Shown: positions 1,511 to 48,286, counted from the first letter of the whole stretch. The stretch is DNA of 63,119 bases, filler included, from Reticulomyxa filosa (GCA_000512085.1; 17 parts of 17 records of this genome joined end to end with filler, not necessarily neighbours in it); one strand, 5' to 3'. The notes: a model not told the origin generated them from the letters alone. Made by a program: numbers and translations.

Positions 1511-4500
1511 TTGGTCAGAGCGTTGGCTATCCGTACTATGGGTTGCATTCGTGTCGAAAGAATCACTGAGTATTTGTGTGATCCCTTAGGAATTGCTTTA
1601 AAAGACCAAGACCCCTATGGTACGTACACTTTTTTTTTTTGCTCCCATCTACATAGCCCCCCCCTCTCGCTTCCTTCGTACCCCCTTTTTTTTTTTGATT
1701 TAATTAAATGAAATTAAAAAAAAAAAAAAAGTAAGAAAAACGGCGGCGATATGTGTCGCAAAATTATATGATATTCAATCGGATTTAGTGGAGGAACGTG
1801 GGTTTATTGAGATTTTAAGGGGAATGTTAAGTGATGTAAACCCAATGGTCGTGGCAAATGCCGTCGCGGCTTTGACGGAGATAAGCGAATCGAGCGGAAG
1901 TGATCACTTTTTGATTGATGGCAACACGCTGAGCAAATTGCTGACGGCGTTGAATGATTGCACCGAGTGGGGACGCGTGTTTATCTTGGATGCATTGGCG
2001 AAATTTGAAGCGAATGCCACGCAAGCCAAAGACATTTGCGATCGAGTGGTGCCTCAATTGCAACATGCCAACAGCGCTGTCGTGATGGCCGCCGTCCGTG
2101 TCGTTGTGAAACACATGTCCAAATTGAAACAAGAGCTCTTACAAAAATATGGGAAAAAATTGGCCCCTCCATTGGTCACTTTGGTGAGCAACACACAACC
2201 TGAGATTCAATATGTCACGTTGCGAAACATTGATCTGATTGTTCAAAGATATCCAAAGATTCTTCACAATGAAGTTTTGTTGTTATTATTTGTTGTTATT
2301 ATTATTCCTTTACAAAATGAGTAAATGAATATAAATAACAAAAAGATTCGTGTGTTCTTCATCAAATTCAACGACGCAACGTATGTGAAAATGGAAAAAT
2401 TAGAAATTTTAATCAAATTGGCAAACAAAAATAACGCCGAACAAGTATTGATGGAGTTGAAAGAATATGCGACGGAAATCGATGTGGAATTTGCTCGTAA
2501 GGCCGTTCGAGCCATTGGACGAGTTGCCATCAAACTTGAGGCTGCAGCAGAAAGCTGTGTAAAAGTGTTGTCAGAACTTGTCAAAACCAAAGTCACTTAT
2601 GTCGTGCAAGAGTCAGTGATTGTGATTAAAGATATATTCCGAAGATACCCACAGCGATACGAAAAAATCATTGTCACGTTATGTGAAAACTTGGAAGTAT
2701 TGGACGAACCAGAGGCCAAAGCATCCATGGTTTGGATCATTGGAGAGTACGCTGAGCGTATCGTCGATGCCGAAGAACGATTAGAGTATTTTATTGAAAG
2801 CTTTGAGGAAGAAGACTTTACTGTACAATTGCAATTGTTGACTGCCACTGTCAAACTGTTTTTGAAGAAACCAGACAAGTCCAAACAATTGGTCCAAAAA
2901 GTCTTGAATTTGGCCACTGAAAAATCAGACAACCCCGATCTGCGTGATCGAGGTTACGTTTATTGGAGATTATTGTCCAGTGACCCTGCCGCCGCCAAAG
3001 CTGTTGTTTTGGCCAGTCGTCCTGAAATTAGCGCAGAGACCTTCTCCTTGCCAAAAGATTATTTGAATGAATTGGTAAGTGTTTTAATTTCAACATTATA
3101 TATGTGCATATACATATACACATAATTTATGCATATGTATATCGATGAAATATCTACCTCAAATAAATCAATAAATGTATTCATTACAAATATCTCTTAA
3201 ACGTACGACTGTATTATGGCCATTACACACGATAATAACATAGTTGGAGAACGTGTCCACATTAGCTGCTGTGTACCAACGCCCACCTGGAGAGTTTGTA
3301 CGAGGAACGCGCAAAGTGATTTTCAAAGCCCACGCGGAAAACCGTGGCGAACATGAGGAAAGCAGCGAGGAGCGAAGTGGTGGAGAGGAGTCAGACAATG
3401 AACAAAAACAAAACAACAAAGACCAAGAGAAGAAGGAAGCGGAAGACGACTTCAATGACACAGACAATGGCGATGACGAGGAAGAAAAGAAGAAGAAGAG
3501 CAAACCAAAAGAAGAGAAAAAACGCTCTCCAAAAAGAGAGCCCGTCGAAGAAAAAAAAGTCCAAGAAGTTGATTTATTAGGAGACTTATTTGGTCCAACC
3601 CCCACCGTTCCAACCAAATCCAATGTCGAAAAACCCAAGCCTAATGTGTCTAGTACACCCGGCGGAGAATTGGATTTGTTGGGAGAATTCAACGCATTTG
3701 GCTCAGACGCTCCATCGACCAATGATAAAGCTTACCCGAATGGAAAATGTATTGAAGCCGATATGACGCAAGGAATTGTTGTTGACACTGGTTACAAGAG
3801 AGCCAACAACAAGCCTTATCTGGTGGTTCGAGTCACAAATAAGTTTTGTTTTTTATTCTCTCTCTCTCTCTTTTGAATGAAAATGAATTGGACATGAGAT
3901 ACTAACAACAAAAAAAAAAAAAAAGTGGTCAACAAGGAATTAACGGAATGGACATCAAATTTAATACCAATTACTTGGGCGCTCAACCTATTCAATCGCT
4001 GCCATTGAACGGAACCGTGAATGCTGGATTCTCACAGATTGCCGAAGTTGAACTTGCATTGTCGCAAGATGCTCAACAACGCACTCCATTCAGCGCAAAA
4101 GTGCAGGCAGCAGTACGAGTGTCCCTAACAAGTGGCCAAAAAGTAGTTCACAAATTTGAAACCAACGTACCTCCTCACGTATTTTTGGATTCGATTTCCG
4201 TTCCAAAGAATGATTACTTGGAAAAATGGAAAAATATCCCTCAAACCGATGGCCAATCGATTCAATTGAAGTCCGTCAAAAGTACTGACGCAGATGTCAT
4301 CAAAACTACTTTGTCCAAAAATAATTGCGAATTTATTGCTCGCAGAGAGGTACAGGAGAAAAAAAACAAGGCCCAAGAGGGGGGGGGGGAAGAACGTTAT
4401 ATGAAAATAAAATAATTTGAATATAAGAACTCACAAGAGATAGTAAACCATTTGGAGAAGGAGGAAAAGGAATCCCCTTTTAAATGTACTTAAACAATAA

Positions 4501-4697
4501 ATGTTGTTGTTTGAATCGTATGATAATAGATCCAAGACAAAGGAGTTTCATTGTATTTCGCTGCAAAACTTCGAAATGAATTGATGTTGATTGAAATCGC
4601 TATTGCTACTATGGGCGCTGCTCGAATTCAAGTCCGCGCAGACAACAAGTACTTGGCCTTTATTACCACGAATGCCATTCAAACTCTCATTGCCTAA
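1511..4697 (+). CDS. AP1B1: Adaptor protein complex AP-1/AP-2 beta subunit (beta-adaptin), 5'-truncated, at least 6 exons
   Basis: [68 protein letters not shown], then hinge and appendage. Introns at 1620-1731, 2274-2345, 3075-3243, 3843-3925 and 4350-4529 keep the frame. Ends NAIQTLIA*. Confidence 0.95.
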
Positions 4698-5369
4698 ACT
4701 CTTGGAAGGGGAAGCAAAATCTTGTTGTTGTGAAAAATGTATGGCCTCTGTGAATGTTGTTTTTATTTTTTTTTTGCTGGTCTTGTTTTTCTTTCATTTG
4801 GAATTCAGGAGTTGGTTGTTTGATCAATATTTGTGTGTTTATGGGGATCCTGACTTTGTTGTTTTGTTTTTGGGAGCAAACTCCTTCGTTCGACGTGGAA
4901 GAAAACAGAAAAAAAATAAAAGCGACACTGTTTTGTCTTTAACTTAATGTTGTCAAGGGCCATCAAGTTTTTTTTGAAAAACAGAATTTCAACAGCCTTG
5001 TGTTTAGTTTGATTTGTTTTGGTTTGTTTGTTTTTTTGAGGGGAGGACAGGTTTGCTCTTTGTGTGAAAATTGAACATTGTGTACCCTTTTTGAGAAAAC
5101 AATAAACCGATCAAATTTCTTAGACGCATTCAAGATGGAGCATTTGCTTTTTTTTGTTTTGTTTTCTGGGTTACCATTTTTAAAAAGTCTTTCATTGAAC
5201 TTTAGTGCTTTTGACAAGCAATATGGACTGTGTTTTACTAAAAATAAACTTAAAAACCTTGTACGGTTTACAAAGTTCAACTGAGCCCCCAAAAAGTTTG
5301 TCATCTGCCGTCCTTTCATTGTGGCACGTTTTTGCAATCAAATAAACTCGTCGCAGTGCTCATTTCATA

Positions 5370-6323
5370 ATGAAATTCAATTCCCGTTCGCTTTTTGTTT
5401 CTTTTTTTCTTTTTCTGTGTGGTGCTTAATTGCTTTTGTTCGGACGGAAAAAAGAAAACTTTTTTTAATCGCACCCCCCCTGTCTCATCGATTTACATCA
5501 AATAACAGACGTGACTAGCAGTCGTCGAAAAAATCGACGAAGACACTTCAATGCACCATCCCATGTTCGCCAGAAAATCATGAGCGCGTCGGTGGCAAAA
5601 AAAAGTGTGCAAAGAATACGGAGTTCCACGATTGTCAATTCCAATCCGAAAAGACGATGTGGTGAGAGTAATCCGAGGAAAATACAAAGAAGAATCCACA
5701 CCTCAAAAAGTGGTTCGCGTTAATAGACGAAAATACAGAATTTATTTGGAAGGAATCCAAAGAGAAAAAGCAAATGGTTTGTAGTTTTTGTGCGTATGTT
5801 TTTTTGGGAGGGCAGAAGAAAGAGGAAAAAACCATCGCAAAATCGCGCAAAACACCGCCCTAAATTTGAAAATGTTTGGAATTACTACTAAAAAATTTCA
5901 AATATTTTGATTGTAGAAATAAAAGACACTCTTTGATAAATTTGGCTTTGATCACCCCTTCCTACTTACTTGCCAACTAAGCTTTTGGGCATCCTATAAA
6001 CCTCTTTCATTTCTTTTTTTAAAAAAAACATTGTTTGAAATTCCTAAAATAAAAAGTGTTGTTTGATTTGTGTGTTGGCTTGAACGATTATACTTTAATC
6101 GGGTTCGTTCCTTAATATTTCTCTCCCTTGTTAGGCTCTCAAGTGCAAGTTCCAATTCAATGCTCAAATGTCGTGATCACACAGTTGAAAGAAGATAAGT
6201 ATCGCAAAGGATTGGTCAAATCATTGGTGAAAAAGAAATTAAAAGCACGCAAGCGATTGGGATTGGGAGAAAAAGAGAAAAAAGGGAGCGAAGAAACCCG
6301 AGGCCCCAACCGATTTGGATTAA
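5370..6323 (+). CDS. RPL26: 60S ribosomal protein L26 (uL24), 3 exons
   Basis: [32 protein letters not shown]...[18 protein letters not shown]...[26 protein letters not shown]. Introns at 5386-5508 and 5777-6134. Apparent 1-nt homopolymer errors near 5597-5604 and 6297. Confidence 0.93.
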
Positions 6324-47451: not shown

Positions 47452-47465
47452 GAATTAAAACCAAC

Positions 47466-47834
47466 TTGGAATGACAAGGCCCATAAAGAAAAGACGGCCA
47501 AATAAACGACTTGTCGATGTTCGCTGTTTTCGTGGATAACCAAATAAAGACGCTCAATGCCGCCATTTTGGGTGAATGCTGATTGGAAGTTCAGATTGGG
47601 GATCGCGCCTTTCAAAGCGTACAAGGGCAGCACCAAGGCGTCGCTTTTGAAGCTTTTCATTTGGTTCATCACAAACGTATTCAGTGACGCATATGCGTCT
47701 TTCAATGAGTTGCTCGCCCAGCGCAATATGTAGCTTCCACAAACCGCCGCTTTTCCACGAGTGAACGCTGACAAGTCCTCACGAATCCAAACCCTTTTTT
47801 TTTAAAAAAAAAAATTCGCTTTTTTTTTTCCCCC

Positions 47835-47868
<34 letters not shown>

Positions 47869-48286
47869 GGAAAAAATTTGCACAAGTTCAAAACCTGATG
47901 AATGGTTGCATAACACTGTCAGATTTGGCTTGCAAAAATGCTCGTCCGCGCTTAGGGTCATGCTCCAATATGTGCGACAGTAAGGTCAATATGTACTTGA
48001 GTTTGGCTTCGTCTCTTGTTTCCAATACCTTCAGAAACGCCTCCGCTGTTGCCTTTGCGTCATCAGGGTTTGAGAAAATTGCCGTTATGTCCCCTTCAGG
48101 AGCCAACATATCATTCGCGCCTCCTGCCAATAGACGGATCCTGTTCACTTCGTCTTTGCCAGCTATGTCAGTAGGTATGTCCTCCCACAAAATCTTTTTC
48201 AACGAAATCTCGTAGTCATCTTCAAAGATCTGATTTTTATCTTTCTCAAATTTCTTTTCCTTGTTCTCAAAATCTTTGTTTGCCAT
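47466..48286 (-). CDS. ATP6V1H: V-type ATPase subunit H, 3'-truncated
   Basis: ILWEDI, LKYILTLLSHILEHD, and QVVYLAVFSLWALSF (cf. QLQY..FC.W.L.F). Intron at 47794-47894. Confidence 0.7.

What the first reader, a model, noticed from the sequence alone, without database searches (positions are those of the whole stretch)
1620..48286. 3' splice sites preceded by poly-A instead of a polypyrimidine tract
Seen: in introns whose borders are fixed by conserved protein sequence, the acceptor AG often directly follows an A run. Examples are 1620-1731 (A15-G; joins DPY|VRKTAA), 3843-3925 (ACTAAC branch point, then AAC-A15-G), 23390-23457 (-, A19-CAG), 32197-32288 (-, splits RNP1 KG|YGF), 40776-40845 (A8-G) and 47794-47894 (-). 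Other introns (ending 6134 and about 41916) keep pyrimidine tracts, so two classes coexist. Known: U2AF65 normally binds a U-rich tract between the branch point and the AG. Inference: this organism defines many 3' splice sites without that signal, through an altered U2AF65, branch-point scanning, or an A-binding factor. This is the best candidate here for an undescribed system.
Basis: partly seen in the sequence, partly recalled or inferred. Interest (0 to 1): 0.8.

Follow-up and report, generated by a model that had tools for sequence, protein, structure and literature searches.

The report
Poly-A intron ends in a foraminiferan
In this stretch of the foraminiferan Reticulomyxa filosa genome nearly half of the well-supported introns end in a run of A's where textbook introns have U's, and the U's sit next to the intron start instead; published tables show similarly A-rich ends in a slime mould and some ciliates, so this is likely a relaxed, rearranged form of ordinary splicing signals, not a new splicing machine.

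Summary
All six cited introns have the stated GT..AG borders and A runs. U is concentrated just after the donor, no AG lies within 20 nt upstream of any acceptor (22 of 22), no branch-site motif is enriched, and pyrimidine-tract acceptors are no commoner than chance, so there is a continuum, not two classes. It is not unique: a 2019 supplement lists 52% purine-rich, A-dominated acceptors for R. filosa, 54% for Ichthyophthirius and 34% for Dictyostelium. Most likely ordinary splicing by intron definition without a pyrimidine tract, taking the first AG after an AG-free, A-rich spacer that slippage lengthens. A post hoc test hints that A-run introns pair their own two ends (n=13, p 0.001-0.03). 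U2AF65, SF1 and U2 could not be examined.

The parts
1620..1731 (+). AP-1/2 beta-adaptin intron; U11 after donor, U11 mid, A15-G acceptor
   Evidence: spliced alignment to homologs DPY|VRKTAA
2274..2345 (+). beta-adaptin intron, GTTTTG donor, A5-G acceptor; ends predicted to pair
   Evidence: joint in two runs
3075..3243 (+). beta-adaptin intron, AACATAG acceptor
   Evidence: joint in three runs
3843..3925 (+). beta-adaptin intron, GTTTTG donor, TACTAAC then A15-G
   Evidence: contigs of two runs begin to match at 3926
4350..4529 (+). beta-adaptin intron, GATAATAG acceptor
   Evidence: joint in two runs
5777..6134 (+). RPL26 intron with pyrimidine-rich acceptor
   Evidence: joint in four runs; Pfam L26 continuity
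8125..8192 (-). ArfGAP-C2 intron, GTTTTG donor with U11, CTAACGAAG acceptor
   Evidence: joint in two runs; Pfam C2 1-59 then 61-96
9559..9640 (+). zinc-finger gene intron, A-rich ACACAAAG acceptor
   Evidence: frame and recalled C2HC motif; Pfam gave no hit for the short exon
10546..10605 (+). tier-B intron, A5-TAG acceptor; 8-bp inverted repeat between its ends
   Evidence: frame continuity
16913..17044 (+). tier-B MCM8 intron, ACTAAT then A22-C-A10 then CGTTCGTACCAG
   Evidence: frame continuity
23390..23457 (-). tier-B kelch-WD40 intron, U12 then A19-CAG
   Evidence: frame continuity only
31864..31965 (-). tier-B RRM gene intron 2, A5-G acceptor
   Evidence: frame continuity
32197..32288 (-). 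RRM gene intron splitting KG|YGF; U-rich start, U13-GATT-A14-G end
   Evidence: Pfam RRM 1-43 in upstream exon; recalled RNP1
35688..35833 (-). amidase-like gene intron, pyrimidine tract upstream of TATTAATGAATAG
   Evidence: frame and recalled amidase motif; no Pfam hit
38653..38735 (-). CFAP100 intron, A7-CAG acceptor
   Evidence: spliced alignment
39138..39209 (-). CFAP100 intron, A9-G acceptor
   Evidence: spliced alignment
39359..39441 (-). CFAP100 intron, pyrimidine-leaning TAG acceptor; donor in a poorly conserved region
   Evidence: spliced alignment
39936..39997 (-). CFAP100 intron, A6-G acceptor; ends predicted to form a 12-bp stem
40101..40180 (-). CFAP100 intron, A8-G acceptor
   Evidence: spliced alignment
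40776..40845 (+). AP mu intron 1, U9 near donor, A8-G acceptor
41054..41335 (+). AP mu intron 2, TA-repeat TATATAG acceptor
41837..41916 (+). AP mu intron 3, pyrimidine-tract acceptor
47794..47894 (-). V-ATPase H intron; internal U16/A18 hairpin, U11-A9-G end
   Evidence: spliced alignment PFI|RVWIR; fold
51309..51448 (-). isovaleryl-CoA dehydrogenase intron 2, TTTTTTGAAAG acceptor
   Evidence: spliced alignment to bacterial homologs
51904..52116 (-). isovaleryl-CoA dehydrogenase intron 1, GAATAG acceptor
   Evidence: spliced alignment to bacterial homologs
59499..59576 (-). proteasome alpha intron, U-rich start, GTAAACAG acceptor
   Evidence: Pfam 1-39 then 42-141

Best explanation
These short GT-AG introns are U-rich just after the donor and A-rich and AG-free just before the acceptor, and they are likely removed by the ordinary major spliceosome through intron definition, without a pyrimidine tract at the 3' end. 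Shown: the borders, the U-then-A polarity, the AG-free zone of at least 23 nt in tier A, A at -4 in 18 of 22, no GAG acceptor, weak donors and no enriched branch motif. Inferred: a U-binding protein (U2AF65 acting at a distance as in fission yeast, or a TIA-1/Nam8-type factor; names recalled) holds the U-rich segment and supports the weak donor; U2 uses a degenerate branch A; the acceptor is the first AG downstream, read in a short A-rich context (AAAAG or AAYAG). Inferred: because U is not needed there and G is disfavoured, replication slippage, which fills this genome's non-coding DNA with homopolymers, lengthens the short A motif into A8-A19 in some introns. The long poly-A is then an extension of a short preference, not a signal read by a new factor.
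For: A enrichment over four kinds of decoy and over rotation; holds in uncited introns. U at +3..+25 is 0.54 against 0.375 after decoy GT, p 5e-5. AG-free 20 nt in 22 of 22 and 30 of 31 against 37.6%; next AG often lies at +4 to +8 in the exon and is not used. A-run introns are shorter, 60-112 nt against 67-358 nt, p 0.008. Run length is a continuum. Genome-wide table: 31,807 of 60,647 R. filosa acceptors purine-rich, A rising from 0.35 to 0.73 at -4, G flat (PMC6339879 Tables S1, S3); same shape in D. discoideum. Precedent for tracts that lie 5' of the branch site or are absent: S. pombe (PMC8624252 section 12) and Fusarium (PMC5677156).
Against: Fungi compensate with a strong branch site and keep YAG; here CTRAY is in 2 of 31 and AAG is the commonest acceptor, 12 of 22, so what fixes the branch point is unexplained. 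AG exclusion alone does not give A: matched decoys have A 0.35 and 7.4% runs, so a real A preference has to be assumed. No protein or snRNA of the spliceosome was examined. The genome-wide 52% comes from predicted gene models and is close to the 49% of all intergenic AGs in this window (31% when matched). A at -3 is not above decoys.
Confidence: 0.55

Rival explanations
1. The U-rich start and the A-rich end of the intron base-pair, folding the intron into a hairpin that brings donor and acceptor together and would stand in for the U2AF65-tract contact, as AC/GT repeats do in zebrafish.
For: In the 13 A-run introns the own 5' and 3' ends pair better than ends swapped within the class (p 0.0008-0.027 for windows of 15-30 nt); not in the 18 other introns (p 0.24-0.60), nor in 91 intergenic A-run decoys (p 0.45) or 154 random windows (p 0.31). 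Leave-one-out p stays below 0.01; the 7 uncited introns alone give p 0.006. Three introns show sequence-specific stems (2274-2345, 39997-39936, 10546-10605). U>=8 within 70 nt in 5 of 13 against 13 of 101 decoys, p 0.03. Precedent PMC4691745.
Against: Post hoc, n=13, one of several structure tests. The six cited introns alone give p 0.39. All 31 together give only p 0.02-0.07. 5' U content does not track 3' A content (rho 0.11, p 0.55) and longest U run does not track terminal A run (rho 0.09, p 0.62). Duplexes average about -5 kcal/mol and whole introns -1 to -24, against -88 in zebrafish; 5 of 13 rank in the lower half or middle for own-end pairing. Pairing would hide the bases next to both splice sites.
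Confidence: 0.2
2. A dedicated A-reading protein (a U2AF65 with changed RRM specificity, or a poly(A)-binding-type factor) would recognise the A run as the functional replacement of the pyrimidine tract.
For: A, not just absence of G, is enriched; A keeps rising upstream of the -10..-3 selection window in the published R. filosa matrix, 0.37 at -20 to 0.44 at -11, while it falls there in Tetrahymena. Equally AT-rich Plasmodium falciparum has only 2.8% purine-rich acceptors, so AT content does not force the pattern.
Against: 12 of 22 introns have no A run and some are pure pyrimidine; lengths are a continuum; the pattern recurs in unrelated lineages, which is simpler as repeated relaxation than as repeated invention. 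No factor was examined.
Confidence: 0.12
3. The polarity is a neutral by-product: strand-biased mutation and slippage in short introns of a homopolymer-rich genome, with selection only on GT, AG and against extra AGs.
For: A and T runs are abundant throughout the non-coding DNA; A at -3 equals the decoy rate and pyrimidine tracts occur at chance; no branch motif enrichment.
Against: A bias that flips from U to A inside a 60-110-nt intron is not explained by a uniform strand bias; intergenic, intron-interior and antisense decoys all have far fewer A runs at AG.
Confidence: 0.13

Closest known systems
Purine-rich 3' splice sites of Nguyen and Xie 2019 (PMC6339879), in particular the A-rich ones of Dictyostelium discoideum, Ichthyophthirius, Tetrahymena and Entamoeba
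   Same: At least 5 purines at -10..-3 (16 of 22 here); purine is A, not G; -4 strongly A; AAG common. R. filosa itself is in Tables S1 and S3 at 52.4%; D. discoideum 34% with A rising from 0.40 to 0.58 at -11 and 0.89 at -4.
   Different: The main text deals with G tracts and has 0 occurrences of 'reticulomyxa' or 'A-rich'; it does not treat the 5' U element, donors or pairing. R. filosa is higher than all but one of about 113 protist rows read, at a milder AT content.
Fungal introns with the pyrimidine tract 5' of the branch site (S. pombe, Fusarium; PMC8624252, PMC5677156)
   Same: Short introns, U tract near the donor, tract absent between branch site and AG.
   Different: Fusarium has CTRAY in 91% and YAG in 94%; here CTRAY 2 of 31 and AAG 12 of 22, with long A runs and weaker donors.
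Zebrafish (AC)m-(GT)n bridged introns (Lin et al. 2016, PMC4691745)
   Same: Complementary low-complexity elements at opposite intron ends, no usable pyrimidine tract.
   Different: Far weaker predicted structure, present in only some introns, U2AF independence untested.

Membership tests
Major (U2-type) spliceosomal introns | GT..AG termini | tested here: met
   5 of 5 joints from relatives' contigs that skip a whole intron read GT..AG; the other borders were found by an aligner that required GT/GC..AG
Major (U2-type) spliceosomal introns | GTRAGT-like donor | tested here: inconclusive
   +5 G in 15 of 31 (decoy 16%), but +3 is T in 15 of 31 and GTTTTG is the commonest hexamer, 5 of 31
Major (U2-type) spliceosomal introns | YURAY branch site 15-40 nt from the AG | tested here: inconclusive
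   YTRAY in 11 of 31, background 33%; a degenerate site is not excluded; one perfect TACTAAC
Major (U2-type) spliceosomal introns | Pyrimidine tract before the AG | tested here: not met
   Y>=9 of 11 in 2 of 22, background 5-9%; the tract is optional in fungi
Major (U2-type) spliceosomal introns | U1, U2, U2AF and SF1 present and used | not testable with these tools
   no genome held; no Rfam match in the window
A-rich purine-rich acceptors (Dictyostelium, ciliates) | >=5 purines at -10..-3, dominated by A | tested here: met
   16 of 22 and 20 of 31; G stays below 0.15
Fungal-type introns with a 5' tract | U tract between donor and branch site | tested here: met
   U 0.54 against 0.375; 15 of 23 U>=6 runs in the first 35% of tier-A introns
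Fungal-type introns with a 5' tract | Strong CTRAY branch site and YAG acceptor | tested here: not met
   CTRAY 2 of 31; AAG 12 of 22
Structure-bridged introns (zebrafish AC/GT) | Complementary elements co-occur at the two ends of the same intron | tested here: inconclusive
   swap test p 0.001-0.03 in 13 A-run introns, but composition correlations null and cited six null
Structure-bridged introns (zebrafish AC/GT) | Highly stable fold | tested here: not met
   MFE -0.9 to -23.5 kcal/mol in the 13 A-run introns
Structure-bridged introns (zebrafish AC/GT) | Splicing without U2AF2 | not testable with these tools
   needs depletion experiments
Introners or retroposed poly-A inserts | Shared sequence among introns and target-site duplications | tested here: not met
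   the six best-scoring pairs among 31 introns involve only TA/CA-repeat introns outside the A-run class; boundary repeats 0-3 nt in 30 of 31

The most novel reading that the evidence does not exclude
R. filosa marks intron direction by composition, U after the donor and A before the acceptor, and in a large class of short introns the two ends base-pair into a hairpin that replaces the U2AF65-pyrimidine-tract contact: a protist U/A counterpart of zebrafish bridged introns in a spliceosome whose donors and branch sites carry little information.
Probability: 0.2. Interest if true: 0.7.

Novelty: new member of a known kind. Interest (0 to 1): 0.38.

Why it matters
It shows a free-living, intron-rich eukaryote that splices with little of the usual 3' information: no tract, no visible branch consensus, AAG acceptors and weak donors. 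That makes it a clean test case for how the 3' AG is chosen when U2AF65 has nothing to bind nearby, with Dictyostelium as a tractable stand-in. It also matters for annotation: the public model of the beta-adaptin gene picked a wrong donor here, and acceptor models trained on pyrimidine tracts will fail in foraminifera.

Tried and rejected
No whole genome is held, so no genome-wide logo and no look at U2AF65, SF1 or U2. No RNA holder is on record; the runs laid are relatives' contigs with RNA as a guess, covering one 11.3-kb stretch only. The metagenome scan gave 80 beta-adaptin loci; the three closest (78-80% identity) align without introns, so no intron of a close relative was obtained. Rfam: 0 matches. 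PDB gave only weak V-ATPase H matches. Two short 'introns' that the aligner put in CFAP100 (41 nt GC-AG, 47 nt) were dropped before counting as probable frameshift artefacts in a poorly conserved region. Nine partial or uncertain acceptors were printed but not counted; seven of them as printed end in A>=8-G. Assembly artefact rejected: homopolymer errors seen against four runs are one base (table 4). Introner or retroposed poly-A origin rejected. Strong branch site rejected. Correlation of 5' U with 3' A content: null. Ten literature searches found no text describing A-rich acceptors in Reticulomyxa or foraminifera; the 2014 genome paper and one paper requested by a recalled id are not held, so the feature may be described there.
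Full report
Source. The window is a chain of contigs joined by N-linkers. The beta-adaptin exon matches RFI_10103 of Reticulomyxa filosa at 100% on a 12,173-base contig, the length of the contig here; a second gene matches a named R. filosa protein at 99%. No genome is held, so all counts of my own come from this window.

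Intron set. I defined 31 complete introns. Tier A has 22. Sixteen come from a spliced aligner that scores only protein similarity and GT/GC..AG: five in beta-adaptin, three in AP mu, five in CFAP100, one in V-ATPase H and two in isovaleryl-CoA dehydrogenase (profiles built from 9, 7, 9, 4 and 12 homologs out of the 120, 8, 120, 10 and 80 fetched, the R. filosa records left out). RPL26 and ArfGAP-C2 rest on joints in contigs plus Pfam continuity, proteasome alpha on Pfam continuity, and three (RRM, zinc finger, amidase-like) on frame plus motifs I recall. Tier B has nine, on frame continuity only. Two short aligner gaps in CFAP100 were dropped and nine partial or uncertain acceptors were not counted. 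Contigs from four runs of relatives (mostly 90-99% alike or less; RNA is the tool's guess) join exactly across 2274-2345, 3075-3243, 4350-4529, 5777-6134 and 8125-8192, and two of them begin to match at 3926, right after A15-G; the tool skips repeats, so no joint is listed for the two A15 introns.

The observation. All six cited introns are as described. In tier A the A fraction at -14..-4 is 0.53 against 0.34 in the rest of the intron (paired p 0.006, rotation p 0.0007). A>=5 touching G or YAG occurs in 10 of 22, against 6.5% of 1639 AGs in 20 hand-picked intergenic intervals, 7.4% of 554 matched for AG exclusion, 13.8% of 80 intron-interior AGs and 5.9% of 85 antisense AGs. A>=8 occurs in 7 of 22 against 1.2%. 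Position -4 is A in 18 of 22 (p 1e-4). With tier B the figures are 13 of 31 and 0.49. Leaving out the eight cited introns gives 5 of 15 (p 0.0035 or 0.045 by null). Homopolymer errors in the assembly are one base where they can be seen, too small to create the runs.

What else the introns show. U is piled up after the donor: 0.54 at +3..+25 against 0.375 after decoy GT (p 5e-5), and U falls from 0.53 to 0.34 while A rises from 0.25 to 0.47 along tier-A introns. Donors are weak: +3 is T in 15 of 31 and +5 is G in 15 of 31. No AG lies within 20 nt upstream of the acceptor in 22 of 22 and 30 of 31, against 37.6% expected; no acceptor is GAG (p 0.007). Branch motifs are not enriched: YTRAY 11 of 31, CTRAY 2 of 31. 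A-run introns are shorter (p 0.008). They share no sequence family and have no target-site repeats.

Pairing of the ends. Folding was explored after the class had been defined. Own 5' and 3' ends of the 13 A-run introns pair better than swapped ends (p 0.0008-0.027 over seven window sizes); the 18 other introns, 91 intergenic A-run decoys and 154 random windows show nothing. The effect survives leave-one-out and is present in the seven uncited introns (p 0.006) but absent in the six cited ones (p 0.39). Simple correlations of U and A content are null, energies are small, and about five introns carry the signal. I treat it as a lead.

What is in print. Nguyen and Xie 2019 (PMC6339879; passages; Table S1 parts 1-2 and searched rows, Table S3 searched rows and parts 17-18 of 18; supplementary file 2 not searched) list 31,807 of 60,647 annotated R. 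filosa acceptors (52.4%) as purine-rich, with A at 0.35 far upstream, 0.44 at -11, 0.73 at -4 and 0.62 at -3. D. discoideum has 34% with the same A ramp, Tetrahymena 33%, Entamoeba invadens 45%, Ichthyophthirius 54%; the rhizarians Bigelowiella and Plasmodiophora have 12% and 11%, and P. falciparum 2.8%. Their main text never names Reticulomyxa. A caution: those are predicted models, and 49% of all intergenic AGs in this window (31% matched) pass the same filter, while my supported introns pass at 16 of 22. PMC11347168 (passages, section 7, Table S4 parts 14-15) classes only 12.3% of 50,607 R. filosa introns as clear 'major', second lowest of 12 species I computed (chosen by eye as the lowest plus comparators); poor annotation may add to this. 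PMC8624252 (passages and section 12) and PMC5677156 (passages) state that in S. pombe and Fusarium the tract is mostly 5' of the branch site or absent. PMC3033335 (passages and Additional file 3) reports that weak tracts go with strong branch sites, which is not seen here. PMC4691745 (listing and passages) describes bridged, U2AF2-independent introns. PMC10245619 (passages) uses R. filosa as a non-reduced spliceosome reference in a figure I could not see. Passages of PMC4683709, PMC3488318, PMC13746701, PMC6783311 and PMC2397502 added nothing. Ten searches found no description in words; the genome paper is not held.

Mechanism. Best reading (0.55): the ordinary major spliceosome working by intron definition, with a U-rich element that supports a weak donor, a degenerate branch site, and the first AG after an AG-free spacer read in a short A-rich context that slippage lengthens. 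Borders, polarity and AG exclusion are shown; every protein role is inferred, and the factor names are recalled. Rivals: end-to-end pairing (0.2), neutral mutation bias (0.13), an A-reading factor (0.12).

Verdict. Real and well above chance, but a further and extreme member of a kind already visible in published tables and shared with Dictyostelium and some ciliates. Interest 0.38; 0.7 if the ends prove to pair functionally.

Noticed in passing
window 2274-2345: The public model RFI_10103 (P0002) uses a donor 21 nt downstream and adds VLLLLFV; homologs and joints in two runs support the GTTTTG donor at 2274.
   Followed up: yes
donors at 2274, 3843, 8192, 39441, 47894: GTTTTG is the commonest donor hexamer (5 of 31) and +3 is T in 15 of 31; U1 pairing in this species may be unusual.
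   Followed up: partly
window 5597 and 6278: One extra A in homopolymers of the RPL26 coding region against all four runs: assembly errors that shift the frame. Similar frame breaks appear in MCM8, CFAP100 and the amidase-like gene.
   Followed up: partly
window 26164-28386: A whole contig is one endonuclease plus reverse transcriptase ORF, a non-LTR retrotransposon.
   Followed up: partly
window 60974-61579 and 62514-63119: A 606-nt perfect inverted repeat, 934 nt apart, ending at the window end: element terminus or assembly fold-back.
   Followed up: no
window 29500-30031 (+): Proteasome-subunit fragment (Pfam 138-188) whose upstream frames are broken by an AT-rich stretch with no clear GT..AG: pseudogene or odd intron.
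   Followed up: no
window 47794-47894 (-): The V-ATPase H intron holds a near-perfect 23-bp hairpin of U and A runs with C/G pairs, z -4.4 against shuffles.
   Followed up: partly
introns 3075-3243, 41054-41335, 42799-42915, 58255-58350: TA/CA microsatellite stretches shared among longer introns outside the A-run class.
   Followed up: no
whole window: Seventeen contigs joined by 16 N44-TTAATTAATTAA-N44 linkers; many contigs end in long homopolymers inside introns.
   Followed up: yes
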